From the IMG/VR virus record IMGVR_UViG_3300030102_004953: DNA of 64,000 nucleotides. One strand, 5' to 3'. The notes beneath the pieces were generated by a model. The model searched no databases. It worked only from the letters and a program-made list of their open reading frames with translations, and was not told the DNA's origin. Positions 22,391 to 59,611 of this stretch are shown here, one piece after another. The position numbers and the translations under genes were made by a program. The first letter of the stretch is position 1. Each line of letters starts with the position of its first letter. Source of the DNA: an uncultured virus (IMG/VR IMGVR_UViG_3300030102_004953) (lineage: Duplodnaviria > Heunggongvirae > Uroviricota > Caudoviricetes).

Positions 22391-23714
22391 ATCTATCCTT
22401 TGTGAATTTAATAGTTGGTTCTTGTCTAAGTTTATTTCTATAACCACTAAAACCTATTCTAACACCCCAACCTAAGTGTTCGATAATGTCTTTTTTAGTA
22501 ACTGATTTTTTCGTATGAATAAAATCAACTATTTTTTTGTAGCTATCTGTTTTTTGTTTTATTGTTTTTAAATTTAATATTGTTTCATCAAGCATATTAT
22601 TAAACTGAGTTATCGCAGATTCCCACTTACACTCTTTAAATCTATCTAATGAACGTTTAGAATATTCCTCTCTAATTGATACATCATCTAAAACCTCTTC
22701 TAACTTTTCTAAAAAGTCATTACTATCGTAGTAGATACCTGCAGAACTTGCAAGTTCACAATAGTAATCAGCATTTAAAAATAAGTAAGGAACACCTACA
22801 CTCATACCATCCGTAGCTGATACAGCCCATCCACTGTATTTCTGTTTTGCACATACACCAATGTAACAAGAAGATAACTTAGAAAAATATCCGAATCTAT
22901 CGTATTTATCATTTGTTAAATATTCTCTACCCTCAGTAGAATCTGCAAGTGGAACCCATACCTCAAAGTCTTGTCTTTGTTCCCAAAGTTTATCCATTTG
23001 TTCTAAAAACCACGGATAGTTTTTGTATGTGTGAGGGCGATGATTGAATACGATAATTTTTTTATCTGTAGTTTGGTTCTCGTATTTTGGAATCTCCCAA
23101 CCAAGATATTGTGGTTCAAGAATCTCATCTAATCTTTTAACTACACTATTATTAAAATGGTTTCTAGCATTTTTTAGAATTAACTTCTTCTGTCCTTGTG
23201 TATTTATACCACACTTATCCATCTCTAAAATACCTAAGAAGTTTACATCCATCATAGTCATACTATAGTTTGTAATCTCAGGAAACTCAGTCCAATGGGT
23301 GTACCCAATAAATCTTGGTTCCATATTTGTATTATTTATGATTGCATTTTTTAGTTGTAAAGTATGTTCAGGCAAATGAGAATACACAATATCATAATCT
23401 CTTTTTTTCCATTGTAATGCTTTTACTATTGTATCATAATCAAAATGAGTTCTCATAGCATTTGGGTATGATGGTAATGGTAATACTAATTGTTCTGTAT
23501 TAGGAAAATCTAAACTATTAATATGATGTGGTGAAAATATTGTAAAATGTATATCATCACGTATCTTATTTAGCTCTCTGATAATATTACATAATACTAC
23601 GACATAAGAATCTTTTTCTAAATCTTGTTGATATGTTATGTTCGGATATACGAGTATATTGTACTTATACTCTTTATCGCTTGTCTTATCTTTTGTAAAA
23701 TTTAATATATTCAC
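22371..23714 (-). CDS. GT-B (family 4-like) glycosyltransferase with C-terminal wHTH-like tail
   Basis: DIVYSH, IVFNHR, GWAVSATDGMSVGVP (variant of the E-x7-E..GxP motif). Confidence 0.75.
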   Translation of the reverse strand: MNILNFTKDKTSDKEYKYNILVYPNITYQQDLEKDSYVVVLCNIIRELNKIRDDIHFTIFSPHHINSLDFPNTEQLVLPLPSYPNAMRTHFDYDTIVKALQWKKRDYDIVYSHLPEHTLQLKNAIINNTNMEPRFIGYTHWTEFPEITNYSMTMMDVNFLGILEMDKCGINTQGQKKLILKNARNHFNNSVVKRLDEILEPQYLGWEIPKYENQTTDKKIIVFNHRPHTYKNYPWFLEQMDKLWEQRQDFEVWVPLADSTEGREYLTNDKYDRFGYFSKLSSCYIGVCAKQKYSGWAVSATDGMSVGVPYLFLNADYYCELASSAGIYYDSNDFLEKLEEVLDDVSIREEYSKRSLDRFKECKWESAITQFNNMLDETILNLKTIKQKTDSYKKIVDFIHTKKSVTKKDIIEHLGWGVRIGFSGYRNKLRQEPTIKFTKDRYETTNS

Positions 23715-24331
23715 GAAAATATCTTTCTTGTCTTTTTATCTAATGGTAAAATGTAGATGTGTTTTGGTGGTAGTGGTTCAGTCCAAATATTCTCATCACC
23801 TTTTTTCATACGTTGTCTAATATTTTCAAACTTAGGACTTTTCTTAGTTAACATTCTGGCGTGATATTTCTCACCATCAGCTATCAACATCCTACTCGGT
23901 TTTGTCATCCCTAAATGTATAAAGTTAGTTGCTTTGTATATAACACCCTCGTGTCCTTGAAAAGTATCCGCATAGGACAGAATAAGCTTGTAATTTGTAT
24001 GCTTTTTTAACCAACTAATGGCTTTACCAATAAAGTAACTTTCTGTATTCTTGACTGTATCATCAATACAACAAAGTCTGTTTAACTCGATAACCCTATC
24101 AGGTGTTTCTGGCATATAACTTTCTGCAACACCAGCCATAGCTGGTATTCCAAACATCATAGCACCAATTAATTTTGGTATCCCAAACTTTCCACTTGGT
24201 GAAAATAATCCGAAACAATAACTAATATGTAAACCTCTTACACTTTTTGAGTAATGATTTTTTCTAACAAAATCTTCTATTGCATTTGTAGGTACTTTTT
24301 CTACAAAATAATCTGTAACTTTATCTTCCAA
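23711..24331 (-). CDS. Mom-like (GNAT) DNA adenine modification enzyme
   Basis: NHYS, ELNRL, LSYAD..QGHEGVIYKATNF..G hallmark motifs of the Mu Mom family. Confidence 0.8.
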   Translation of the reverse strand: MEDKVTDYFVEKVPTNAIEDFVRKNHYSKSVRGLHISYCFGLFSPSGKFGIPKLIGAMMFGIPAMAGVAESYMPETPDRVIELNRLCCIDDTVKNTESYFIGKAISWLKKHTNYKLILSYADTFQGHEGVIYKATNFIHLGMTKPSRMLIADGEKYHARMLTKKSPKFENIRQRMKKGDENIWTEPLPPKHIYILPLDKKTRKIFS

Positions 24332-25520
24332 CTTCGCCTATATATTTTTCTCTTGTTTGTTCCCAATCTAATCCTATGATATCTCCATAGAATAAAATGT
24401 CATCTTTTAACTTGTTGGAAGTTAACAATTTTTCATATCTTTTACAAGCCTTTTTTTTCCACCAATCCATAACACCATCTACATCTTGTTCAAATCTTGG
24501 TTTTAATCTTAACTCACTTTCAGATATTTCACCTCTTAGGTATTCCCTACTATTTTCATAGTAAGTTAGGTAGAATACGCCACGTTTAAATCCGTGTTCA
24601 TATGCAGTTGTCTTTATCCCTAACTCTTGAAATATAAGATTTAATATTCTTTGTTTTACACCCGTAACAGGACCTGAATCCCTATCTTTACTTTGTATGT
24701 GTTTTGCATACTTTTCTGATTTATTATCTTTGTACCAATCGTGCCACTTCTGAAAAAAATCATCATCAGGTTTTAATGAAATTCTACCAGCAGATTCACC
24801 AAGTGTTTTCCAATAAGGAATACCATTATACATAGAGTGTATACCATATAGTGATGTGGTAGTAACTCCAGCTAACTTCTCTCCATATAACTCTTCCCAT
24901 TGTTCTCTAAACGTTTTAGTAGATATCAATGCTGCGATTAATTTACCACCTAAGAAGTTAAATCCAAATGGTTGTGTAGAACATATGGTTGTAGCTATAG
25001 TAGAGTTTTTTAATTTACCATCGGTTAATTTATTATCTTTACTCCAACCAATATAAGAATCTCTAGCACTAATAGCTATAACATCGGAACCAAGACATAT
25101 TACACCAAGTATCTTATTACTTGTCTCATCCATAACAATAAACTTTACGTTTCTACCTGGATTAGCTGTAAACTCCATCGTATGAATAAGTCTACGAATA
25201 AGAGTCCAATATTCATTTTGTCTTGAATCACCTTGTTTGATTGGAATGATTTTTGGTTTTATTGATTGTATCTCTGCTAGTGTTGTTTCTCTATCTAATA
25301 AATTTGTTGGTTTCCATAACTTAGGTTTAATCGTATGAATCTTGCTAGCTTTTTGTCTAATTTCATAATCATTATGATTAAACTCTTTCCACTTTTTATA
25401 AAGTGTAGATTCTTGGACACTCATAGTTTTAAGAAAATCCATATGTTCTATGAATTTTTGCTTTTCATCTTCGTAGATGAACTTATCTGGATCCTCGAAA
25501 AAGTTTTCGAATAACTCCAT
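24321..25520 (-). CDS. DUF4338 / Druantia DruA-like protein
   Basis: PGRNVKF, RDSYIGW, PFGFNFLGGKLIA, TTTSLYG..SMYN, LGESAG. Confidence 0.75.
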   Translation of the reverse strand: MELFENFFEDPDKFIYEDEKQKFIEHMDFLKTMSVQESTLYKKWKEFNHNDYEIRQKASKIHTIKPKLWKPTNLLDRETTLAEIQSIKPKIIPIKQGDSRQNEYWTLIRRLIHTMEFTANPGRNVKFIVMDETSNKILGVICLGSDVIAISARDSYIGWSKDNKLTDGKLKNSTIATTICSTQPFGFNFLGGKLIAALISTKTFREQWEELYGEKLAGVTTTSLYGIHSMYNGIPYWKTLGESAGRISLKPDDDFFQKWHDWYKDNKSEKYAKHIQSKDRDSGPVTGVKQRILNLIFQELGIKTTAYEHGFKRGVFYLTYYENSREYLRGEISESELRLKPRFEQDVDGVMDWWKKKACKRYEKLLTSNKLKDDILFYGDIIGLDWEQTREKYIGEVGR

Positions 25521-27689: not shown

Positions 27690-28427
27690 TTAACTCCTTA
27701 TTGCTTTACTAAACCAAATCTGTAATGATAATCTATCCATAGCCATATTTGATGTTTTGGCTACCCTATGATTTATACCTGTTCTTAAAGTTACAAGTTT
27801 GTTTGGTGTTGGTTTTATCCACCAACCATCTATAACCTCACCTTGAGGTGCATCTTCACCTGCTTCAATTAGTAACTCTCCGTGCCACCTATCCATCCAA
27901 GTACTATGTACGTAAAAGCTACCTGCACCAACTCTTAGAATTTGTTTTGCATTAAAAATCTCTTGCTCGTTTTCATCTAAATCATAAGCACGAGCAGGAT
28001 CGTTATGCCAATCAATACCACCACCTGGTGAATTCCATTTGTAACAATGTATATCTAAGTAATCAAAATCTGAATCAAATGTTGTTACAAACTCTTGTTT
28101 CATTTCAAATATACGCCTAACAAGTGGTTGAAAATAAACATTCAATTCTTCTACAGAATATGGTATCTCTTCATATACTTTTTGATTAGTATCAAGTTTT
28201 TTATGTGAGTATGGATTGTATTGTTTATGCACAAACTCATTTTCACCAAACATACCAACTTGCATTATAGTAGTTTTATTGTAATCTGATACAAGATTCT
28301 TATCCCATATAGATCTTTCGTGAGTATGTTTCATAGAATCTGTTACATCAATGAATTTATTATAACAAAACCATTGAACATTTTGAAAGTCTATTTCAGA
28401 TAATAGATTTTTTGTTACTGAAACCAT
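27690..28427 (-). CDS. 2OG-Fe(II) oxygenase
   Basis: WHND...GEL...NHRV...RLSL. Confidence 0.8.
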   Translation of the reverse strand: MVSVTKNLLSEIDFQNVQWFCYNKFIDVTDSMKHTHERSIWDKNLVSDYNKTTIMQVGMFGENEFVHKQYNPYSHKKLDTNQKVYEEIPYSVEELNVYFQPLVRRIFEMKQEFVTTFDSDFDYLDIHCYKWNSPGGGIDWHNDPARAYDLDENEQEIFNAKQILRVGAGSFYVHSTWMDRWHGELLIEAGEDAPQGEVIDGWWIKPTPNKLVTLRTGINHRVAKTSNMAMDRLSLQIWFSKAIRS

Positions 28428-37450: not shown

Positions 37451-37845
37451 GGGGATGTTGGATTAGCGATTACCAACAACTTTCTCGCTCAGATTTATTT
37501 GCCCTTGTACCTACTACCCATCAGTTACGATGATTCTCTTCATAGATGGTTAGTCTACGTCAAAGTGAGTATAACCTCTGTAGTATTGCTTTATCTCTCT
37601 GAGTTTAGATTGATTCAGCCACAAGATGGGATTTCAGTTTTACCCTTACCCATAACAAGGTCATAAGAATCGCTTCTTATTTTATTCTGAAAGTACCTTC
37701 TCCAACTACTATCGTAGGGTATTGTCAACATTTAGCCGAATACCAACTCACCACAAGTCTTGAAGCGGATTGCCTTATGGGCTTCCTATGGTTACCCATT
37801 ATTCAGCCAATCCCATACAGAGTTAATTACTCTCCGTACTTCTCA
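37451..37845 (-). ncRNA. Large (~400 nt) structured ncRNA of unrecognised family
   Basis: GC-richer intergenic block with no credible ORF; many helices, GNRA tetraloops and G-U pairs on the minus strand; boxB/boxA-like leader. Confidence 0.7.
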
Positions 37846-42852: not shown

Positions 42853-43334
42853 TTATTTCTTTTAAAGTTTTTTTTCATATCTAAATACTCAGTATCTTCT
42901 CTAGCCATCTTCCAATATTTTTGAAATATTAGACTACTATCCATAAATCTTTGTTCATTCCTATCATAAGGTAATACTCTCCACTCACCATCATTAATCC
43001 ATTTTTTACCTGAACTATGATTCCAATATCTACGACTACGTGTGAATCCCATATGTAGATATTTCTTAGCCATATCAGCACCTACAAAATCACCTTGTTC
43101 TATATATTCTAAGAACTTTATATAAATTAGATTACAAGATAGTTGTGCTTCTTCTGGTGTTTTAAATCTCCACAATGGATGTAGTTCTGATTTGTAAGGT
43201 TCACAAGTTAACACACCTTGTTGTCCTCTACCTATTTCATATAGGTGCGGATTCTTACGATAGTCTATGTTTGATTTCCACTTGTAATTGTCATAGTCAA
43301 AATCTACGTATGTTGGTTTATTTCTTTCAGCCAT
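42849..43334 (-). CDS. DUF4385-like protein
   Basis: GRGQQGVL.CEPYKSE...WRFKTP...DMAKKYLHMGFTRSRRY. Confidence 0.75.
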   Translation of the reverse strand: MAERNKPTYVDFDYDNYKWKSNIDYRKNPHLYEIGRGQQGVLTCEPYKSELHPLWRFKTPEEAQLSCNLIYIKFLEYIEQGDFVGADMAKKYLHMGFTRSRRYWNHSSGKKWINDGEWRVLPYDRNEQRFMDSSLIFQKYWKMAREDTEYLDMKKNFKRNK

Positions 43335-44109
43335 TATTAACCTTTATCTTTTTTATCTCTACATCCTCTATACCCTTTACTTTTGGATATGGTAATGCAG
43401 GATACTTTAATCCTTTTTTTGCTTTTCGTATATCTGTTTTACTTCCTAACAAGTAAACATACCTATGCTTTCTTAATTCTTTTTTAATCCAAAAATCTTT
43501 AGGAACTAAGTTACGAAGTTTTTCAACATCGTTAGTTCCATAGTATGGAAATATAGTTCTGCCGTGTTGCCACTCACCACCCTCATTCCACTTGAATAAC
43601 CAACTATCATTAGGTCTAATCTTGTTACCTTGATAAATCCAATTTGTAGCCTGATATATTGTACCCACGTGTCCCTCTTGTGGGTCAGCGTAAGATATTA
43701 ATCCTTTTATATGTGGTTTGTTTTCTTTCAACCATTTAAATCCTTTTCCTATAAGATACGATTCTATATTACCACCATAACCATCGTGTACAAATAACCT
43801 TACTAACTCATATACATTCTCTCTTGGTATCTCAGTAGATATAGATGCGCCTGAATGTCTACCGATTGGGTCACCATAACATATAACACCAATTAGTCTT
43901 TCATCAGCTTCATCAAAGAATTTATGTTGACTTCCATCAGAGTAAAATAATCCTAAAGCCACACTACACTTTGTCCACTTGTGTGAATAATGATTTTCTA
44001 TAATCATCTCTCTTGCTATTTTTCTGTCTATTTCTTTAACAGATAACTTGGTAGTATCTACTTTATTTTCATTACCCATTTTCTCATCCTCTTTGGTAGA
44101 ACTTCCCAA
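43327..44109 (-). CDS. Second Mom-like (GNAT) DNA modification enzyme
   Basis: NHYS, ELVRL, ISYAD..EGHVGTIYQATNW.YQG, KHRY; start may be 44079. Confidence 0.8.
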   Translation of the reverse strand: MGSSTKEDEKMGNENKVDTTKLSVKEIDRKIAREMIIENHYSHKWTKCSVALGLFYSDGSQHKFFDEADERLIGVICYGDPIGRHSGASISTEIPRENVYELVRLFVHDGYGGNIESYLIGKGFKWLKENKPHIKGLISYADPQEGHVGTIYQATNWIYQGNKIRPNDSWLFKWNEGGEWQHGRTIFPYYGTNDVEKLRNLVPKDFWIKKELRKHRYVYLLGSKTDIRKAKKGLKYPALPYPKVKGIEDVEIKKIKVNNG

Positions 44110-45549: not shown

Positions 45550-46302
45550 TTATCTAAATGGTGGACCTGTACACCAAAACACTAATGATTTTCTTACACC
45601 AGCATTTACAGGCGATACCCTATGTAGCATATAAGATGGAAAAATTACTGCTGAGTTTCCAACTCTTGGTACAGCCAGGTTTTCTTTCGCTTGTTTAAAT
45701 TCTAAATCACCACCATTAAAATCAACCTCAGGTTCATTTAATAATACTGTTATACTAAGTTTTCTAATCGATGATAACCCAGCACCTATATCCATATGCC
45801 AATCGTAGTGAGAACCTTGTTCATCATATATAGTATATTGTATACCAGTCTCCCAATGTCCCCAAATATCAAACTTAAACAAATCTCTATTTGCTTGAGC
45901 TATCAACCAAGATATTTTATCAAATAACCATCGAGTATCAGGATTCATACCAATCCATTTTACTTTTGATTTTCTAAAATCAACATTACGCCAAGGTTGG
46001 TCACCATTGGGTAAAGCTTCACCCATTTGTGGAATATCTTCTTCTAAACCATCTGCTATATTTTCTATCCAACCTAATTCTTCTTGAGTAAAAACATCAT
46101 TTACGACAGCCCAATCAGTTGGGTAAACTTCATAGGCTTTCTCGTGCCAATATCTATGATAACCAGATTCTAAAAAAGGTGTCCCCCAATTTTTGATATC
46201 ATCACCTCTTTCCTCGAATTTATCTTCAGGAACTTCATTATACTTATCATCAAGTGATGATGTTTGTGGACTGTCTATAGGTTTATCCCACAGTATAGCC
46301 AT
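45550..46302 (-). CDS. 2OG-Fe(II) oxygenase (PKHD-type)
   Basis: HYDWHMD, RKLS, GGDL, FPSYMLHRV, RKSLV. Confidence 0.9.
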   Translation of the reverse strand: MAILWDKPIDSPQTSSLDDKYNEVPEDKFEERGDDIKNWGTPFLESGYHRYWHEKAYEVYPTDWAVVNDVFTQEELGWIENIADGLEEDIPQMGEALPNGDQPWRNVDFRKSKVKWIGMNPDTRWLFDKISWLIAQANRDLFKFDIWGHWETGIQYTIYDEQGSHYDWHMDIGAGLSSIRKLSITVLLNEPEVDFNGGDLEFKQAKENLAVPRVGNSAVIFPSYMLHRVSPVNAGVRKSLVFWCTGPPFR

Positions 46303-46526
46303 TAATACTCATCTCCATACAAGCTATATTTCTTTACAGGTTTAGGTGCTATCACACCATCCTCAGTATAAACTTTTCCATCTTTTGCATCTACTACAAA
46401 TTCTGTAGCTGATGTTTCCATAAAAATAGCATTTAGAGCATCAGTTAGCGTAGTGTGAATTGTATCATCATTCTCTAACATCCATCTATCACCTGGTGGT
46501 ACTCTTGTAGCAGCTAGTTGTTTCAT
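46302..46526 (-). CDS. Hypothetical protein
   Basis: Overlap-coupled ORF. Confidence 0.55.
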   Translation of the reverse strand: MKQLAATRVPPGDRWMLENDDTIHTTLTDALNAIFMETSATEFVVDAKDGKVYTEDGVIAPKPVKKYSLYGDEY

Positions 46527-47347
46527 TTTCTTCCTCCATCAATCATATGTTTAGGTAGTTGGTCATCAAAGTGTCTTTTTATTATTACAACTGGTAAATT
46601 AGGATTCATATTACTATATGCATAAATATCAAATGAGATTACTATTCTCATATCATCGCCAGTTGGTTCCACTCCGTGTTTTAAGTGTGATGGAAATAAT
46701 ACAACATCACCCTCTATTGGTTTTATCTTAACTGATTCTACTCCTACATCACCTGTATTATATTCTTCTTCTATTCTCCTATCGTTTCTCCACAAGTAAT
46801 CAAATACGTTTAAGTGATTTCTATAAAAACTTAGATTAGGATTATTATTCTTTGGTAACTTAACATAATATATGCCAGATACGCAACCTCCTGTATGGTC
46901 GTGTATTGGTATCGCTGTCTTAGCTGATTGTACATTGAACCACGATTTACCTATTACAAAATCTTGATTAATTAAATCAATGTTTAAATCGTATAGATAT
47001 TTTTCTAAGTGAACATTTAAATTTGAAAACAATTCTAAAAATAATGGGGTTTCTATATTATGTAGTCCACGCACATCTTTGTTATGTTCCATAGGATGTG
47101 ATGATGAGTATCCAAAGCCAGAAGAGTTGGATAATTGCATATTAGGATTAGCCTCATCTTGTTGGTATATATTATGTAACTCTACTTCTAACTTACTATT
47201 TAAATCTGATATAGCTTGTGGATTAGCTATAGGTTTTCTGTATATAGGATAATCAAATATCTTTGTGTAGACATTTTCATCCAAAGCATCTCTCTCTCCA
47301 TATTCAAATGTAGGCATTAGTATATACTCTCTGGTTTCCAATTCCAA
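46523..47347 (-). CDS. 2OG-Fe(II) oxygenase (TIGR02466-like)
   Basis: SWFN, HDH, SGIYY, FPSHLKHGV, RIVISF. Confidence 0.85.
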   Translation of the reverse strand: MELETREYILMPTFEYGERDALDENVYTKIFDYPIYRKPIANPQAISDLNSKLEVELHNIYQQDEANPNMQLSNSSGFGYSSSHPMEHNKDVRGLHNIETPLFLELFSNLNVHLEKYLYDLNIDLINQDFVIGKSWFNVQSAKTAIPIHDHTGGCVSGIYYVKLPKNNNPNLSFYRNHLNVFDYLWRNDRRIEEEYNTGDVGVESVKIKPIEGDVVLFPSHLKHGVEPTGDDMRIVISFDIYAYSNMNPNLPVVIIKRHFDDQLPKHMIDGGRK

Positions 47348-48721: not shown

Positions 48722-48818
48722 CAAAAACTCCCTTAAATTAATAACTTAGGTATTAGTTTCTCTTTTTATTTTCTTAACTTTTTAAAGTAAATAGTATACA
48801 AGTTAAGTTTTATGTTTG

Positions 48819-48890
48819 TAGCCCGTAGGGGAATCGAACCCCTGTTGCAGGAATGAAAATCCTGAGTCCTAACCACTAGACGAACGGGCC
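48819..48890 (-). tRNA. tRNA-Glu(TTC)
   Basis: Cloverleaf; CAGGA-TTTTCAT-TCCTG anticodon arm; GGTTCGATTCC T arm; no encoded CCA. Confidence 0.93.
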
Positions 48891-48895
48891 AGTAG

Positions 48896-49309
48896 TGGAG
48901 CTGGTGGGAATCGAACCCACGTCCAAACGCTTTCTCGATGAAGTCATTTACAGCTTAGTTAGTTTCAAATCGGTAGTAACTAACAACCCACCATATCCCC
49001 ATTTACTCAGATAGGTTTAACTGGTAGGGTTTATTGTCTCCCTACATTGACGATCGTGTCTAACTTGTTTTATGACCGAGTGTTAAACAAACTCAGTATC
49101 TTATGCAGCGTGTGCGTAAGATGGTTGAGAAGTACGAGCTGGTTCAATAAATGTATCAAACATACGCTCTGAATTAGCTAGATGCCAATCCACTTTCAAC
49201 CCTTGTAGCGATTTATCGCCATTTAGGTTTTGTGAGTCTTATTAAAGAGTCTACTCATACTCTGCTGCACTTCATTGTCAAATAACGCCTGTCGAAACCA
49301 GTCAGCCCC
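48896..49309 (-). ncRNA. ssrA: tmRNA
   Basis: GGGGCTG/CAGCTCCA acceptor with G3-U; GGTTTCGAC; GGACGTGGGTTCGATTCCCAC; tag frame ending YAHAA-TAA. Confidence 0.93.
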
Positions 49310-49313
49310 ATAG

Positions 49314-49386
49314 AGCCAGAGATAGGATTCGAACCTACGACCTAGTGATTACAAATCACTTGCTCTACCAACTGAGCTACTCTGGC
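49314..49386 (-). tRNA. tRNA-Thr(TGT)
   Basis: Canonical cloverleaf; AGTGA-TTTGTAA-TCACT anticodon arm. Confidence 0.95.
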
Positions 49387-49464
49387 ATAAAGTAGTGGGG
49401 AAGTCCTCACGCCCTATTGTTTGATATTATCGCTCGCCAGTTTGTGGTGTTTATCCACTACTTG

Positions 49465-49537
49465 TGGAGCTGACAGGAGTCGAACCTGCGACCTCCTCCG
49501 TGCAAGGGAGGCGCTCTCCCAACTGAGCTACAGCCCC
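49465..49537 (-). tRNA. tRNA-Ala(TGC)
   Basis: GGGGCTG acceptor with G3-U70; CCTCC-CTTGCAC-GGAGG anticodon arm. Confidence 0.95.
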
Positions 49538-54134: not shown

Positions 54135-54881
54135 TCATTTGTAGTTAATCCCTATATTCCAACTCATACTTAATCTCTCGCCAGGTCCTTTAAATGGATA
54201 CACCACGTGGTTCAACCAAGATGGGAATACAGCGAACAAGCCAGGATATGGTACGTGGTGTTGGTTACCATTATAAATAAATTGTCTCATATAATCTGCT
54301 GTGCTTGTATCCCATAGTAGTTCGGTTATACCATCCAGTTTATTCTCATCGAAGTAACCCTTTGGTATCTGCTCAGGTACTTTAAGATGTAAGAAGCCAG
54401 ATAATGTACTATGGTAGTTAGAGCTGTGAAAATGTATTGGGTTGTAATCTCCCTCGTATTGATGTACAGTCCACATATCATCGATATGAATATCAAACTT
54501 CTCAGGTAATCCACTACCTAACATCACACCACCACCAAACTCTCTAAAGGAACCTACATACTGATTGGTTGCTTCTATCAATACGTGTACTAGATTCTGT
54601 ACCATAGGATGTTTCGGGTCTATCTGTAGTTGTTTACTCTTCGGTGTATCCATCCTACCAACTAAAGCACTATCATAATCCTTACCGTGATTTTCGAAAC
54701 CACTCCACCTTACAGGATTTGTTGTGTTCCTCTGCTTACCATCGTGGTAAACATCATCGCACATTTGGATGAGTTCGTTTATAACCTCATCCGTTAAGAC
54801 TCCCTCTACTATATGGAATCGTGGTATGTGTCGTAATGCAAGTTCATCTTTAAGCAAAGACTTCATTTCTACATTCTTCAC
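54135..54881 (-). CDS. 2OG-Fe(II) oxygenase (TIGR02466-like)
   Basis: NPIHFH, LSG, FPSWLNHVVYPF, RLSMSWN. Confidence 0.85.
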   Translation of the reverse strand: MKNVEMKSLLKDELALRHIPRFHIVEGVLTDEVINELIQMCDDVYHDGKQRNTTNPVRWSGFENHGKDYDSALVGRMDTPKSKQLQIDPKHPMVQNLVHVLIEATNQYVGSFREFGGGVMLGSGLPEKFDIHIDDMWTVHQYEGDYNPIHFHSSNYHSTLSGFLHLKVPEQIPKGYFDENKLDGITELLWDTSTADYMRQFIYNGNQHHVPYPGLFAVFPSWLNHVVYPFKGPGERLSMSWNIGINYK

Positions 54882-56039: not shown

Positions 56040-56529
56040 CTTGGCGGCATAAGAATGTTATTCATACCATCCATCACACGTTGCAAGAATATGTTCTTCT
56101 CGGTATTACGCTTCTTATATTTCCTACGGGTGGTACGCTTAATAATTTTCTTCTGACCCATACTAAAACCCTCGTTTCTTCTTTAACTTATTATACTTCT
56201 TACGTAAGGAACGCTTCTTCTCTCTCATACGCACTAACAACTCCATCTGCAACCTCTTTATACCCTTACGCTTCTTACGAGCCCAAAAGCTCCTACGCCT
56301 TCTTTCTCCTCTATTCATATAACTCCCCTATTGTTATAATAATAAATACTAGATTGAGCTAAAATAAATCTTTATGCGACACTTCCCCAACGCTACTTTG
56401 ATATGGTATTACCATATAAACAATATTAATATTCCCATAGGGATAAATTTTAACCTCGGGTCGTATACACGCTCAGCTCACAAAAAAGGTGGTTAGCCTT
56501 TCTACGTTCACGGTTAAATGACCACCCCC

Positions 56530-56712
56530 CTATGCTCTGCCTATCGGTATCCCCTTATCCTGCCAGTGTCCTATGTTCTCCCACATAGCCATCAGGCTCA
56601 GTTGTAGCGTGCTGTCGTCCATCTCCGTGTAGAAGCTACCATCCATCATATCCGCCAGTAGGTTGCGTATTATCTCCCTATCCACGTTATCTATTATATT
56701 GTCTAGTTGCAT
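56530..56712 (-). CDS. Hypothetical protein
   Basis: 60-aa ORF downstream of the RNA operon. Confidence 0.45.
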   Translation of the reverse strand: MQLDNIIDNVDREIIRNLLADMMDGSFYTEMDDSTLQLSLMAMWENIGHWQDKGIPIGRA

Positions 56713-56750
56713 TTGAGCTCTTTCTTTTTTATATGCCGCTTAAAATCTTG

Positions 56751-56822
56751 AGCGGTGTGTTGGTACTGCCCCAACCCCTCTTCTATGGAATAGAAGCGTA
56801 TCTCTCTTGATACTTCCACCGC
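56751..56822 (-). tRNA. Non-canonical tRNA-Gly(TCC)-like RNA
   Basis: GCGGTGG AA GTAT-CAAGAGAG-ATAC G CTTCT-ATTCCAT-AGAAG AGGG GTTGG-GGCAGTA-CCAAC ACACCGC T: 72-nt cloverleaf with Gly identity elements. Confidence 0.7.
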
Positions 56823-56866
56823 ATATGTAAATAGTATTAGATTATTCAGAATACTATTTTTTTTAT

Positions 56867-56951
56867 CCGAGCCGCTATGATTCGAACATAGCAGTTATAT
56901 CTCCACTACTCGTTAAGCGTGGTGTGGCAATACAACTTCACCAGCAGCTCA
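56867..56951 (-). ncRNA. tRNA-like RNA lacking a D stem (tmRNA-TLD-like)
   Basis: TGAGCTG/CGGCTCG acceptor, CTATG-TTCGAAT-CATAG T arm, long internal helix AGTTGTAT/ATATAACT. Confidence 0.6.
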
Positions 56952-57112
56952 CCCCATCGTGTTTAGCTGGATTGTTCTTGAACGACACCACGCTCACATT
57001 AGGATTTTTCAAAAATCTTTGGGTGGTTGGTATTCTTACGATTCACTTAGCCCCGAGGGACCACCCTTATTACGATTACCCATTAGAAGTTGTCTGCTTC
57101 CACCACGTGGGT
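56951..57112 (-). ncRNA. 6S-like rod-shaped RNA candidate
   Basis: Paired ends, irregular long stem, A/T-rich central bubble (12 + 17 nt), inner GGGTGGT/ACCACCC helix. Confidence 0.5.
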
Positions 57113-57122
57113 TTCTCTATAG

Positions 57123-57243
57123 AGACAAGATAGGGACTCGAACCCTACAGCTCCTCAAACAAAACTCAAGTAATCAGCTCTTTGTTTCTCAGAACACCAC
57201 TAGACTCAGAGGGTGATTAGCCCTCATCAACGCCCGTCTTGCC
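57123..57243 (-). ncRNA. Enlarged tRNA-like RNA (121 nt)
   Basis: GGCAAGA/TCTTGTC acceptor, TAGGG-TTCGAGT-CCCTA T arm, two internal hairpins. Confidence 0.6.
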
Positions 57244-57272
57244 TTTCGAATTCTTCAAATAACTTACCCCCT

Positions 57273-57302
57273 AATATACGCATAAAGCCCCATACGTGTC
57301 AA
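57273..57302 (-). promoter_or_regulatory. sigma70-type promoter for the RNA operon
   Basis: TTGACA-18-TATATT with upstream A-tract. Confidence 0.75.
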
Positions 57303-57373
57303 GTCTTTTTTTGCTTTAACCTAAACTTTTTAGATGCCGCCATCGCACGAGCCTAAAATAGTTAAGAAAGTGC

Positions 57374-57403
57374 TTGACTTGTATTGGGTTTATTTCGTAA
57401 ATT
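57374..57403 (+). promoter_or_regulatory. sigma70-type promoter (plus strand)
   Basis: TTGACT-18-TAAATT. Confidence 0.6.
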
Positions 57404-57453
57404 ACGGGTTAAGCCTTAAACGCAACGGCTATAGCGCGTGGTATACAAGTTGG

Positions 57454-57483
57454 AATATAATACATATAACCTATACAAGTCAA
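57454..57483 (-). promoter_or_regulatory. sigma70-type promoter
   Basis: TTGACT-18-TATATT. Confidence 0.7.
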
Positions 57484-58278
57484 GTCTTTTTTAGCGGCTC
57501 GAATCCCGCGCCATATAGGTTAGCCGCTCTAAACTATTTAGCTAGGAATACCAACCCAACCCATATGTCAAAATGTCATATATATCTCAGGGCTTCGCGC
57601 ATAGGGATACGCTATACTTGCGCAAGCGTGTAACACACTTAATTATTCAGAGTTTTATTCATAGTTATATCAATCTGAGGATATTGAGGTATATGAGAGC
57701 GCTGAGATATTGTGTTGTATCAAACTCCATATATCAGATTAAGTGGGTAGAAGTGGGTTAATGTGGAATACGTATGGATAGTTACGACAAACCCGATTGA
57801 GTGTTTTTCGATGCCAGGAGTACCCATATTACCTTCAAAAAGGGTGCTTCCTGAGGGTGAAATATATCTCATTAGGGTTGTATTGATTAGCACTCAATCA
57901 TATATTTGATGAGGTATCTCACGCAGATGACGAATACTATTGCTAGGAATTCATCGGGGTAGGTGGTTATGAAATATTTGAGGCTTTCGATTAAGCCTTT
58001 GATGATGTGTGTATAGTCGATAATGTATTATATCGATAAGTGTCGTAGCGTGATAATAAATAGTGTTGGGAATGCTGAAAATGGGATTTGGTGAGAACTT
58101 AGATTGTGAGAGTGAACTATGGGCTAGAGGATACGGCGTTAGCCGTGTCCATTAGTGTATCTCTTATAAATCTTCTATGTCTCTTTGGAATTTTTGTATT
58201 TGCACTAAGCCCCATAGTTGTATTCCTACTATTAATAACATAATACCTACTAAGGAGCCTAGTACATTTAGTAACATT

Positions 58279-58581
58279 TTAATTAGCAACCGGCTTGTTG
58301 GCAGCTTCGTCCTCTTTTGGCTTACCGCCTGATATAACCACAATCTCTTCCAACTGTTGGTGTTCGTAGCAATAAAAGTAGTGCGTGTTAGTCATACGTA
58401 ACTTATATAGGTCCTGAACAAATACGTGTAACCTACCTCGTTCGTCCTTATAGTTGTAGAGTTTAGACTCTACCTTACTCCTATAATCTATATTCATACC
58501 GCTGAATGCTTGTATCGGTTGAGGAAATGATGAGCAACTGATTGATAGTAATAATGTGAGTGCGATGATAACGTTTTTCAT
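58279..58581 (-). CDS. Putative lipoprotein
   Basis: Signal peptide with lipobox SISC. Confidence 0.6.
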   Translation of the reverse strand: MKNVIIALTLLLSISCSSFPQPIQAFSGMNIDYRSKVESKLYNYKDERGRLHVFVQDLYKLRMTNTHYFYCYEHQQLEEIVVISGGKPKEDEAANKPVAN

Positions 58582-58906: not shown

Positions 58907-59611
58907 TCATTTATACCAAAAAACTTGTGCCAGAGTATACCTTGAGTCTAAATAGTCGTCCGATGGAGCGTTCCCACAATGAGGTATGATAGATTTAAAC
59001 AAGGCTATTCTGCCTGGCTTTGGCGTTATACTTTTTATGAGCTTAGCGTCCCTATCATATAAATCCAAGTTCCCCCCATACCAATCTTCCCAATAGTCAT
59101 TAGCGAAGTAGATTAGCGTCCATACATTATCATTCTGACTATCTGTATGTGGGTAGCTATGCATTCCTCTAGCTTGTGAGTTTACAACCTGAGAACGTAG
59201 GAATACTAAGTCCTCTGATATATTAAAGTGTTCTAGTACCCTACTATAGATGTAGTTACAGGCAAATCTTTTTTCTATGCCGCTATCGTATCTCTCATTG
59301 TGTTCACCCTCTTCCCAAGTTTTAGTCTTTGGATTGACTGAATAGTCCTTGAAGAATGAGTGAACATAACAGGCTACATCTTGTAACCCTAACTCATCGT
59401 ATACTCTGTCTGGCCATATCCTATCCGTTGATTTGTTATAGGATAATCTATTGTACTGCCAATTTATATTATTTCTGATGTGTTCGTAGAAGTTATGGAT
59501 GAATGTATCATCAAACAAATCATCCACTACATAGCAGTCATCTTCTACGTTACCTTGATATGGTGCGTTATCACCTATTTCATTCTGATTGAGTCTCATC
59601 ATCTTCCTCAT
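58907..59611 (-). CDS. 2OG-Fe(II) oxygenase
   Basis: PHTD, TLIY, YGG.L, PKPGRIALF...H...RYTL. Confidence 0.85.
   Translation of the reverse strand: MRKMMRLNQNEIGDNAPYQGNVEDDCYVVDDLFDDTFIHNFYEHIRNNINWQYNRLSYNKSTDRIWPDRVYDELGLQDVACYVHSFFKDYSVNPKTKTWEEGEHNERYDSGIEKRFACNYIYSRVLEHFNISEDLVFLRSQVVNSQARGMHSYPHTDSQNDNVWTLIYFANDYWEDWYGGNLDLYDRDAKLIKSITPKPGRIALFKSIIPHCGNAPSDDYLDSRYTLAQVFWYK

What the first reader, a model, noticed from the sequence alone, without database searches (positions are those of the whole stretch)
56751..57302. Promoter-driven all-RNA operon: tRNA-like / 6S-like / tRNA-like / atypical tRNA-Gly
Seen: a TTGACA-18-TATATT promoter is followed by four back-to-back structured RNAs and no credible minus-strand ORF. 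Two keep only the acceptor stem plus a TTCGA T arm. They bracket a rod-shaped RNA whose 3' end abuts the 5' base of the second one (56951). Established: RNase P and RNase Z recognise the acceptor-plus-T-arm half of tRNA. Inference: the tRNA-like units act as processing punctuation that excises a regulatory cargo RNA, and/or as decoys for host anticodon nucleases or tRNA-binding defences. I know no described element with this layout.
Basis: partly seen in the sequence, partly recalled or inferred. Interest (0 to 1): 0.85.

Follow-up and report, generated by a model that had tools for sequence, protein, structure and literature searches.

The report
Phage promoter-driven tRNA-derived small RNA cassette
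A marine phage carries, behind one of its own early promoters, a swappable non-coding RNA gene built on the top half of a tRNA, much like the still unexplained small RNAs C and D of phage T4; the "6S-like" RNA proposed next to it is not a real unit.

Summary
The promoter is real. It is one of seven copies of AAAAAAGACTTGAC-N18-TA(T/A)(A/G)(T/A)T, all on the minus strand. No tRNA finder or Rfam family matches them.

Comparison redraws the map. The conserved thing is a cassette running from the -10 box to about 57007. It holds a leader hairpin, the 121-nt tRNA-derived unit 1, a variable spacer and a 3' hairpin.
- One diverged relative (flanking ORF 42% identical) carries it with a single base change and a 49-nt spacer deletion.
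- One near-identical strain lacks it: 266 nt are replaced by 25.
- A 211-nt contig from a metatranscriptome library covers 57260-57050.

The "rod/6S-like" RNA folds no better than shuffled sequence (z -0.09), and the cassette boundary cuts through it. Unit 4 is a clean cloverleaf here (z -3.25), but the relative has a plain hairpin in its place. Unit 3 has no comparative support.

Best reading: these are stable, non-decoding tRNA-scaffolded small RNAs processed by tRNA enzymes. Their target is unknown. Covariation could not be tested (49 of 50 pairs invariant), and no RNA ends were mapped.

The parts
57273..57312 (-). Promoter P2. It has an A-tract plus GAC, a -35 TTGACA (57302-57297), an 18-nt spacer and a -10 TATATT (57278-57273). 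A G-rich AGGGGG follows at 57272-57267.
   Evidence: The -35, the -10 and the AGGGGG are identical in L003, while the spacer differs.
57244..57272 (-). Leader before unit 1, with the hairpin UUUGAA-GAA-UUCGAA at 57259-57245.
   Evidence: It is identical in L003.
57123..57243 (-). Unit 1, a 121-nt tRNA-derived non-decoding RNA. The acceptor stem pairs 57243-57237 with 57130-57124. The T arm is 57147-57131 with loop UUCGAGU. Position 57123 is a discriminator-like U, and no CCA is encoded.
   Evidence: Descriptor scan. Folding with the acceptor stem and T arm forced gives -34.4 kcal/mol against an unconstrained -35.5, as a four-way junction. L003 differs at 1 position. The 3' 35 nt resemble the 3' third of the phage's own tRNAs. 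A 10-mer is shared with the D arm of the phage tRNA-Glu; 3 of 500 shuffles do as well.
57202..57235 (-). Arm 2 of unit 1, a candidate box-C/D-type kink-turn hairpin. UUGAUGA lies at 57230-57224 and CUGA at 57209-57206. The inner stem is GAGGG/CCCUC and the loop is CUAAUCA (57220-57214).
   Evidence: Weak cmscan matches to archaeal C/D sRNAs (E 3.8 and 9.7). A loose K-turn descriptor hits here; it finds 8 sites in the window against a mean of 3.35 in shuffles. The closing pair G57221-C57213 is G-U in L003. This motif was found after the fact and has not been probed.
57150..57195 (-). Arm 3 of unit 1, a long imperfect hairpin. Its UGAUUA (57176-57171) is complementary to the arm-2 loop UAAUCA (57219-57214), so a kissing contact is possible.
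   Evidence: duplex energy -3.5 kcal/mol. The contact is an inference only.
57073..57122 (-). Variable spacer. It is present here, and 49 nt of it (57121-57073) are absent in L003. One contig of run X14 skips 57063-57119.
57007..57072 (-). Conserved 3' hairpin of the cassette, with outer stem GGGUGGU (57066-57060) and ACCACCC (57027-57021), followed by AAAGAUUU. Identity with L003 ends at 57013. The deletion variant rejoins at 57006.
56952..57006 (-). It lies outside the cassette and cannot be aligned with L003.
56867..56951 (-). Unit 3, the second top-half unit. The acceptor stem pairs UGAGCUG with CGGCUCG and has 2 G-U pairs. The T arm is 56891-56875 with loop UUCGAAU. One 45-nt hairpin replaces the D and anticodon arms.
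   Evidence: z -2.79. The tRNA-like fold costs 4.1 kcal/mol more than the minimum-energy fold. The variant contig of X14 shows no change here. No homologue was found in L003.
56752..56822 (-). Unit 4, a cloverleaf-shaped element with loop AUUCCAU (UCC at 56789-56787). Its T loop is GGCAGUA, and its D loop lacks GG.
   Evidence: ARAGORN and Rfam give no match. At the same place L003 has a two-helix hairpin with UAUUCC in its loop, followed by a shared UCAARAUUU(U)AAGC trailer.
56530..56712 (-). The first ORF downstream, 60 aa, with no family match.
   Evidence: It is 42% identical to the syntenic L003 ORF.
57454..57492 (-). Promoter P1, of the same family, 181 nt upstream of P2.

Best explanation
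A sigma-70-type phage promoter starts a transcript of about 560 nt that stays non-coding until a 60-aa ORF. Its first 260 nt or so are a self-contained RNA cassette that related phages exchange. The cassette has four parts:
- a short leader hairpin;
- a 121-nt RNA derived from tRNA. It keeps the 12-bp acceptor/T-arm minihelix, and two other arms replace the D and anticodon arms, so it cannot decode;
- a variable spacer;
- a conserved 3' hairpin.

Two lineage-specific structured elements follow: a second top-half unit and a cloverleaf-like element.

I infer that the tRNA halves are handles for the host's tRNA enzymes. RNase P would cut at 57244/57243. The 3' end would be trimmed near 57123, and CCA would be added, because none is encoded. 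The compact tRNA-like end would then protect the product from exonucleases. The result would be one or more stable small RNAs whose working surface is the non-tRNA arms, and the cut would also free the downstream hairpin. This is the same kind of product as T4 RNA C.

What the RNA binds is not known. I favour a protein that recognises tRNA shape.

Shown here: the promoter family, the anatomy, the conservation, the presence/absence polymorphism, and a contig in an RNA library. Inferred: the processing, the stability and the target.
For: - Promoter: there are 7 exact copies of the extended motif, all on the coding strand; 0 of 100 shuffles reach the observed count.
- Anatomy: the two units are the only non-tRNA hits of the acceptor-plus-T-arm descriptor in 64 kb.
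- Conservation: L003 matches the window from the -10 box to 57122 and from 57072 to 57013 with 1 substitution. The promoter spacer, both flanks and the neighbouring ORF have diverged (62% nucleotide identity in the next block, 42% amino-acid identity).
- The one substitution turns a G-C pair into G-U in the arm-2 stem.
- The 49-nt indel in L003 rules out the overlapping plus-strand ORFs.
- Polymorphism: a contig of DNA run X14 joins 57006 to 57273 with 25 other letters between them, so 266 nt are replaced and the cassette is dispensable. Another X14 contig carries 57033-57278 with 1 change and then runs on unlike the window.
- RNA library: in run X20, a 211-nt contig equals 57260-57050 with 4 changes. 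It begins 13 nt below the -10 box.
- tRNA ancestry: the 3' 35 nt align to the phage tRNA-Thr (p about 0.005) and tRNA-Ala (p about 0.03). A 10-mer matches the D arm of tRNA-Glu.
- The trailer after the discriminator (CUA) is the same as after the phage tRNA-Thr and tmRNA (read).
- T4 RNA C, taken from the T4 record, also ends in a 5-bp T arm with a UUCGAAU loop.
Against: - No RNA end was mapped. Contigs cannot show starts or ends, and the RNA library may hold DNA.
- No covariation: 49 of 50 proposed pairs never vary between the only two distinct sequences.
- Unit 1 is not unusually stable (z -0.50). Its tRNA-like fold is 1.1 kcal/mol above the minimum-energy fold. For unit 3 the gap is 4.1 kcal/mol.
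- Given a T arm, a chance 7-bp partner within 260 nt upstream is not rare. My estimate is about 0.2, and shuffles give about 1 full hit per window.
- Near-identity with sharp edges could reflect recent transfer rather than selection.
- Units 3 and 4 are not conserved in shape in L003.
- Only one diverged relative was found in all collections searched.
Confidence: 0.5

Rival explanations
1. Counter-defence decoy. The cassette RNA mimics tRNA in order to soak up or mislead a host nuclease or sensor that targets tRNA. This would explain why it behaves as an accessory, exchangeable gene.
For: - The cassette is present or absent between near-identical strains, and it is nearly identical in a diverged phage. 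Accessory genes of the phage-host arms race often show this pattern, which is my inference.
- It sits behind an early-type promoter.
- Phage tRNAs are known to neutralise tRNA-cutting defences; I saw the abstracts in the listing for PMC11464382 (PARIS) and PMC13056530 (Schlafen).
Against: - Those known cases use decoding tRNAs that replace cut ones, not non-decoding mimics.
- The arm-2 loop CUAAUCA has a pyrimidine at the position equivalent to 37, so it is a poor anticodon-loop mimic (my reading of the sequence).
- No defence gene or partner protein is linked to it.
- The host is unknown.
Confidence: 0.15
2. Cis-acting structured leader. The stretch, units 3 and 4 above all, is the 5' untranslated region of the small-ORF operon. 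It would control that operon's translation or stability and would not make free-standing RNAs.
For: - No terminator-like site lies between P2 and the ORF on the minus strand, apart from the T arm itself.
- Unit 4 ends 40 nt before the ATG.
- L003 has a hairpin with a similar UAUUCC loop and a shared UCAARAUUU(U)AAGC trailer at the same place before the homologous ORF.
Against: - The cassette can be absent while the downstream sequence is unchanged, so it is not needed for the operon.
- A leader does not need tRNA-type T loops with contiguous acceptor stems.
Confidence: 0.15
3. Decaying tRNA genes. The units are remnants of a former tRNA cluster and have no function of their own.
For: - Segments derive from tRNA.
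- tRNA finders fail on all units.
- Units 3 and 4 are not conserved in L003.
Against: - Unit 1 with its leader and 3' hairpin differs at 1 position, while the flanks have diverged beyond alignment.
- It has its own promoter.
- A contig of an RNA library covers it.
Confidence: 0.08
4. Two tRNA-like units punctuate and release a 6S-like rod RNA that acts on RNA polymerase.
For: Unit 3 begins directly after the stretch in question, at 56951.
Against: - The stretch folds no better than shuffles and is not a rod.
- There is no 6S match.
- The cassette boundary and the L003 deletion cut through it.
Confidence: 0.04
5. Attachment site. The tRNA-like 3' parts are copies of a host tRNA end used for integration.
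For: Phage attachment sites often copy the 3' part of a tRNA gene (general knowledge).
Against: - The 21-mer that spans the variable loop and T arm occurs in only 2 of 241 million metagenome records, and both are phage contexts.
- No integrase is seen in the window.
- The conserved block is far longer than a tRNA end.
Confidence: 0.02

Closest known systems
Phage T4 RNA C (species 1, 139 nt) and RNA D (species 2, 119 nt)
   Same: - These are small stable phage RNAs of similar size and unknown role that do not decode (passages read in PMC3014915 and PMC9697503).
- In the T4 record, RNA C ends in a T arm CCGGG/UUCGAAU/CCCGG followed by 9 nt.
   Different: - The T4 RNAs lie inside the tRNA cluster, directly after tRNA-Arg. 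Here the units are 7 kb from the tRNA-tmRNA cluster and have their own promoter.
- There is no sequence likeness beyond the T loop (unit 1 against RNA C, p about 0.025; all other pairs are not significant).
- RNA D has no TTCRA loop.
- At its annotated ends, RNA C pairs only 5 of 7 in an acceptor-like stem.
- PMC9697503 classes them as late RNAs. Here the promoter type is one that also precedes small early-region ORFs.
tRNA-like domain of tmRNA
   Same: Both have an acceptor stem stacked on a T arm, with the D and anticodon arms replaced by other structure.
   Different: - There is no Rfam tmRNA match.
- The wobble pair is G2-U71, not the G3-U70 that alanine charging needs (recalled).
- There is no tag reading frame, and the unit is 121 nt rather than about 350.
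- The phage has a true tmRNA elsewhere, at 48893-49309.
Bacterial Y RNA YrlA (tRNA-like module plus Ro60-binding stem)
   Same: Both are non-coding RNAs with a T arm and an acceptor-like stem. M. smegmatis YrlA, which has a 7-bp stem, is cut by RNase P and receives CCA (passages read in PMC4201824).
   Different: - There is no Rfam match.
- No Ro60/TROVE gene lies among the 92 ORFs of the window.
- I did not see the GNCGAAN0-1G motif when reading the sequence.
tRNA-like-plus-hairpin transcripts (murid gammaherpesvirus 68 TMERs; MALAT1 mascRNA)
   Same: A tRNA-like unit heads or ends a transcript, and tRNA enzymes cut it free from neighbouring hairpins (recalled). The only likeness found here is a T-arm match to the mascRNA model at E 4.4.
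   Different: Those are eukaryotic or viral polymerase III or nuclear systems, and they are not homologous. Processing here is untested.

Membership tests
tRNA (Rfam RF00005; ARAGORN) | Scores above threshold with tRNA covariance or heuristic models. | tested here: not met
   ARAGORN finds 3 tRNAs in the window and none in 56700-57300. There is no RF00005 match at the gathering score or at E up to 10.
tRNA (Rfam RF00005; ARAGORN) | A 7-bp acceptor stem contiguous with a 5-bp T stem and a TTCRA-type T loop. | tested here: met
   Units 1 and 3 meet it. Unit 4 does not: its T loop is GGCAGUA and its acceptor stem has 6 bp.
tRNA (Rfam RF00005; ARAGORN) | A D arm and an anticodon arm with a 7-nt loop in the standard places. 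| tested here: not met
   Unit 1 has 89 nt between the acceptor 5' strand and the T stem, which fold as two non-standard arms. Unit 3 has one 45-nt hairpin there. Unit 4 has both arms by minimum-energy folding but lacks the conserved D-loop and T-loop bases.
6S RNA (Rfam RF00013 and relatives) | A rod-like fold of about 180 nt with a central bubble, and a model match. | tested here: not met
   There is no match at E up to 10. The stretch 57122-56952 has z -0.09 and a branched minimum-energy fold. It is not a conserved unit.
tmRNA | A model match, a tag reading frame and pseudoknots. | tested here: not met
   The only tmRNA match in the window is 48893-49309. There is none in the finding.
YrlA / bacterial Y RNA | It is encoded beside a Ro60 (TROVE) gene and matches the model. 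| tested here: not met
   None of the 92 ORFs has a TROVE domain, and there is no Rfam match. The rest of the phage genome is not held, so a distant Ro60 gene cannot be excluded.
T4 RNA C / RNA D type stable phage RNAs | A stable small RNA made during infection. | not testable with these tools
   Only contigs were available. One contig of an RNA library covers 57260-57050, which shows neither stability nor ends.
T4 RNA C / RNA D type stable phage RNAs | It lies within, and is co-transcribed with, the phage tRNA cluster. | tested here: not met
   The tRNA cluster is at 48818-49537. The finding lies 7 kb away behind its own promoter.
T4 RNA C / RNA D type stable phage RNAs | Sequence homology to T4 rnaC or rnaD. 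| tested here: not met
   Local alignments score no better than shuffles, except for the shared T loop.
Kink-turn (box C/D type) | A C stem, a 3-nt bulge, tandem sheared G-A pairs, a U-U pair, then a second stem. | tested here: inconclusive
   The sequence pattern is present at 57235-57202. The loose descriptor has a background of 3.35 hits per window in shuffles. There is no structure probing and no covariation.

The most novel reading that the evidence does not exclude
The cassette is a mobile 'RNA moron': a promoter-equipped, non-decoding tRNA mimic. A kink-turn arm and a loop-loop contact would give it a new fold on a tRNA top half. Marine phages would trade it because it disarms a host defence or takeover target that reads tRNA shape. 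If so, it would give the 50-year-old puzzle of T4 RNA C and D a first testable function.
Probability: 0.12. Interest if true: 0.85.

Novelty: new variant of a known kind. Interest (0 to 1): 0.55.

Why it matters
Phage small RNAs built on a tRNA top half have been known since T4 RNA C and D, but their role is still unknown (PMC3014915, passage read).

This example comes with three useful handles:
- It has its own promoter.
- A natural variant with the cassette deleted exists in an otherwise near-identical strain.
- A nearly identical copy sits in a diverged phage.

Together these give a ready genetic contrast and argue that the RNA itself is what is kept. The phage also occurs in marine metagenomes of several studies, so expression and variation can be followed in public data.

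Tried and rejected
Searches for relatives that found nothing useful:
- blastn of 56400-57900 and of the cassette alone against 50,697 phage records gave no match, even at E 1.
- All 8 viral-contig scans failed. Three were protein-anchored. Four used exact 21-22-mers. One used a gapped structural pattern; its single hit, L005, is a chance match with no tRNA-like fold.
The 36 with a full T stem and an acceptor-like partner of at least 6 of 7 pairs read as ordinary tRNA-Leu or tRNA-Ser genes with a chance upstream TTGATGA. blastn of the cassette against all 120 gave one 20-nt hit at E 0.008.
- The nearest held virus record, G001, does not contain this part of the genome.
- Flavobacterium phage immuto is 48% identical over a glycosyltransferase. 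It has no tRNA, no descriptor hit and no similarity in the syntenic stretch.
- Our earlier notes hold nothing for this genome or sequence.

Limits of the read data:
- In RNA run X20 only 57050-57260 and 57164-57238 are covered out of 56400-58300. I draw nothing from the uncovered parts, because these are contigs.
- Runs X18 and X19 carry short pieces like 56875-56911, 57120-57162, 57192-57238 and the promoters. They may be DNA and come from other phages, so I use them only as a hint that relatives exist.
- A compensating change at 57213 opposite the common 57221 variant is possible. One plus-strand G>A in X20 and X14 is not listed in the table, so it was not shown.

Structural ideas dropped:
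- A closing stem between the 5' GGGGGU and the 3' ACCACCC appears in the minimum-energy fold. I dropped it because the G run probably lies upstream of the transcription start.
- The closing stems of unit 4 and the L003 hairpin differ in sequence, but they are out of register in alignment A4. I do not count this as covariation.

Literature: the search for bacteriophage + noncoding RNA + tRNA-like + kink-turn gave 7 papers, none on such an RNA judging by title and abstract.
Full report
CONTEXT

The window comes from a large marine phage. All long ORFs lie on the minus strand. One glycosyltransferase is 48% identical to that of Flavobacterium phage immuto. That is the only kinship with a named phage that I found.

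Pfam and PHROGs show replication and baseplate genes, several 2OG-Fe(II) oxygenases, Mom-like proteins and a peptide deformylase. They show no integrase, Ro60, reverse transcriptase or RNA-repair gene among 92 ORFs.

A true tRNA-tmRNA cluster (tRNA-Ala, tRNA-Thr, tmRNA, tRNA-Glu) lies at 48818-49537. That is 7 kb from the finding.

The window's own assembly is not held. The nearest held record, G001, does not contain this part.

THE OBSERVATION

- The generic sigma-70 scan is not enriched: 9 sites found, 9.1 expected.
- The site at 57302-57273 belongs to a family with a longer shared motif, AAAAAAGACTTGAC-N18-TA(T/A)(A/G)(T/A)T.
- The core AAAGACTTGAC occurs 9 times at up to one mismatch against 1.85 expected. 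None of 100 shuffles reaches 9.
- The 7 exact copies are all on the minus strand.
- Five of the 7 stand just before ORF starts. Two, at 57488 and 57307, stand before non-coding sequence.

The two tRNA-top-half units are also real.
- I scanned for a 5-bp T stem, a TTCRA loop and a directly adjoining 7-bp acceptor stem.
- The scan finds five sites in 64 kb, all on the minus strand.
- Three are the true tRNAs.
- Shuffled windows give about one such site (mean 1.07), so a single site alone would be weak evidence.

None of the four units is called by ARAGORN or by any of the 4227 Rfam models, even at E 10 on short sub-stretches.

COMPARISON REDRAWS THE MAP

A 21-mer from the T arm of unit 1 occurs in only two metagenome records.
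- L004 is the same phage: 99.8% identical, with no change in the RNA region.
- L003 is a relative with the same gene order: lipoprotein-like ORF, long non-coding region, 60-aa ORF. That ORF is 42% identical.

Aligned to the window, L003 shows this pattern:
- The spacer between the -35 and -10 boxes differs.
- From the -10 box through the leader and all of unit 1 down to 57122, it is identical except at one base.
- It lacks 49 nt (57121-57073).
- It is identical again from 57072 to 57013.
- After that it cannot be aligned.

The one substitution, C57213 to U, changes the closing G-C pair of the arm-2 hairpin into G-U.

Read-level data agree with these edges.
- In DNA run X14, one contig joins 57006 directly to 57273 with 25 unrelated letters between. 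The same phage therefore also exists without these 266 nt.
- A second X14 contig carries 57033-57278 with one change and then continues unlike the window.
- A third skips 57063-57119.
- In metatranscriptome run X20, a 211-nt contig equals 57260-57050 with four changes. It begins 13 nt below the -10 box.
- Contigs cannot show RNA ends or strand, and an RNA library can contain DNA. I treat this as a hint of transcription only.

The conserved object is therefore a cassette of leader, unit 1, variable spacer and 3' hairpin, together with its own -10 box and G-rich start region. It is dispensable in one strain and nearly unchanged in a diverged phage.

The 'rod' (57122-56952):
- It folds no better than shuffles (z -0.09; 90 of 200 fold as well), and its fold is branched.
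- Its first 49 nt are the variable spacer. Its middle 66 nt are the cassette's 3' hairpin. Its last 55 nt lie outside the cassette.
- It is not a unit, and nothing supports a likeness to 6S RNA.

Unit 3:
- It is thermodynamically well defined (z -2.79).
- Its tRNA-like fold is 4.1 kcal/mol worse than the minimum-energy fold.
- L003 has no counterpart.
- The X14 variant contig shows no change in units 3 or 4 and five changes in the spacers. Those changes fall in two clusters, so this is not significant.

Unit 4:
- It is a textbook-shaped cloverleaf by free energy alone (z -3.25; the minimum-energy fold takes 41% of the ensemble).
- Its loop reads AUUCCAU. Its T loop is GGCAGUA, and its D loop lacks the conserved GG.
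- At the same place L003 has a two-helix hairpin with UAUUCC in its loop, followed by a shared UCAARAUUU(U)AAGC trailer before the homologous ORF.
- The tRNA-Gly reading is therefore not supported. A cis-acting leader element is at least as likely.

ANATOMY OF UNIT 1

With the acceptor stem and T arm forced, the best fold is a four-way junction at -34.4 kcal/mol. The unconstrained optimum is -35.5. The overall stability is ordinary (z -0.50).

Arm 2 (57235-57202) has the sequence signature of a box-C/D-type kink-turn:
- an outer stem GGGC/GUCU;
- a three-base bulge;
- tandem G-A pairs, a U-U pair, then GAGGG/CCCUC capped by CUAAUCA.

I noticed this through weak cmscan hits to archaeal C/D RNAs. 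A loose descriptor gives 8 hits in the window against 3.35 in shuffles. The motif is plausible but was found after the fact.

The loop bases UAAUCA are complementary to UGAUUA in the apical part of arm 3. Only the sequence supports this possible loop-loop contact.

Unit 1 shows tRNA ancestry:
- Its last 35 nt align with the 3' third of the phage's tRNA-Thr and tRNA-Ala.
- A 10-mer equals the D arm of tRNA-Glu; 3 of 500 shuffles do as well.
- The CUA after the discriminator base also follows the phage tRNA-Thr and tmRNA.

Covariation cannot be tested: 49 of 50 proposed pairs are invariant between the two distinct sequences.

MECHANISM

Shown:
- a phage promoter family;
- a non-coding, tRNA-derived cassette kept almost unchanged across diverged genomes;
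- a natural variant that lacks the cassette;
- a contig in an RNA library.

Inferred: RNase P and 3'-end enzymes recognise the acceptor/T-arm minihelix, which is established for tRNA and for minihelix substrates. They would release a stable RNA of about 121 nt that cannot decode. The same cut would free the downstream hairpin.

The target is unknown. I favour a protein that reads tRNA shape. A counter-defence role is the most interesting version, but it has no direct support.

The Rival explanations section gives the evidence for and against each.

COMPARISON WITH THE KNOWN

T4 RNA C and D are the closest kind. They are small stable phage RNAs from the tRNA region whose roles are unknown (passages in PMC3014915 and PMC9697503).
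- In the T4 record they follow tRNA-Arg back to back.
- RNA C ends in a T arm with a UUCGAAU loop. RNA D has none. Neither is homologous to the units here.

Other comparisons:
- tmRNA and YrlA share the top-half idea but fail their membership tests.
- Earlier notes of this scan describe similar top-half RNAs in two T4-like phages and reach the same comparison. They are leads, not evidence.
- My literature searches found no description of a promoter-equipped, exchangeable cassette of this kind. They cover open-access full text only.

VERDICT

- Real and of moderate interest: a conserved, mobile, tRNA-derived small-RNA cassette, which I class as a new variant of a known but unexplained kind.
- Ordinary or unsupported: the 6S-like rod, the tRNA-Gly reading, and the four-unit operon as a conserved design.

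Noticed in passing
window 57313-57452 (minus strand); L003 3056-3198: A second non-coding stretch of about 140 nt lies between promoters P1 and P2. It is homologous to L003 at about 62% identity and has conserved cores GUAAUUUACGA and AAGUCAAGC. One contig of DNA run X14 skips 57318-57469, which looks like a promoter-to-promoter deletion. This may be another small RNA.
   Followed up: partly
window 34241, 44616, 51959, 52664, 53149, 57307, 57488 (minus strand): A family of seven promoters shares AAAAAAGACTTGAC-N18-TA(T/A)(A/G)(T/A)T. Only the one before the cassette is followed by a G-rich AGGGGG, and L003 has the same.
   Followed up: partly
window 48818-49537 (minus strand): The phage encodes a tmRNA (Rfam 107.8 bits) that ARAGORN did not call. 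It is packed end to end between tRNA-Thr and tRNA-Glu, with no CCA encoded. By my reading its tag frame ends in ...YAHAA.
   Followed up: no
window 37452-37654 (minus strand): A manA RNA motif scores just above its gathering score (56.6 against 55.2 bits).
   Followed up: no
window 23711-25520 and 43327-44109 (minus strand): A protein with a DruA (Druantia) domain (E 5e-29) sits next to a Mom-family protein. A second Mom-family gene lies 18 kb away.
   Followed up: no
window 27690-28427, 45550-46302, 46523-47347, 54135-54881, 58907-59611: Five ORFs match 2OG-Fe(II) oxygenase families in Pfam. PHROGs labels the last one endonuclease V.
   Followed up: no
L003 2681-2991 (minus strand): In the relative, two small ORFs (61 and 41 aa) behind a third promoter copy sit between the upstream small-RNA stretch and the cassette. 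The window has no counterpart, so the region is built from promoter-headed modules.
   Followed up: partly
window 57603-57614; L003 3365-3376: The 12-mer TAGCGTATCCCT is shared in otherwise unalignable non-coding sequence upstream of the first promoter.
   Followed up: no
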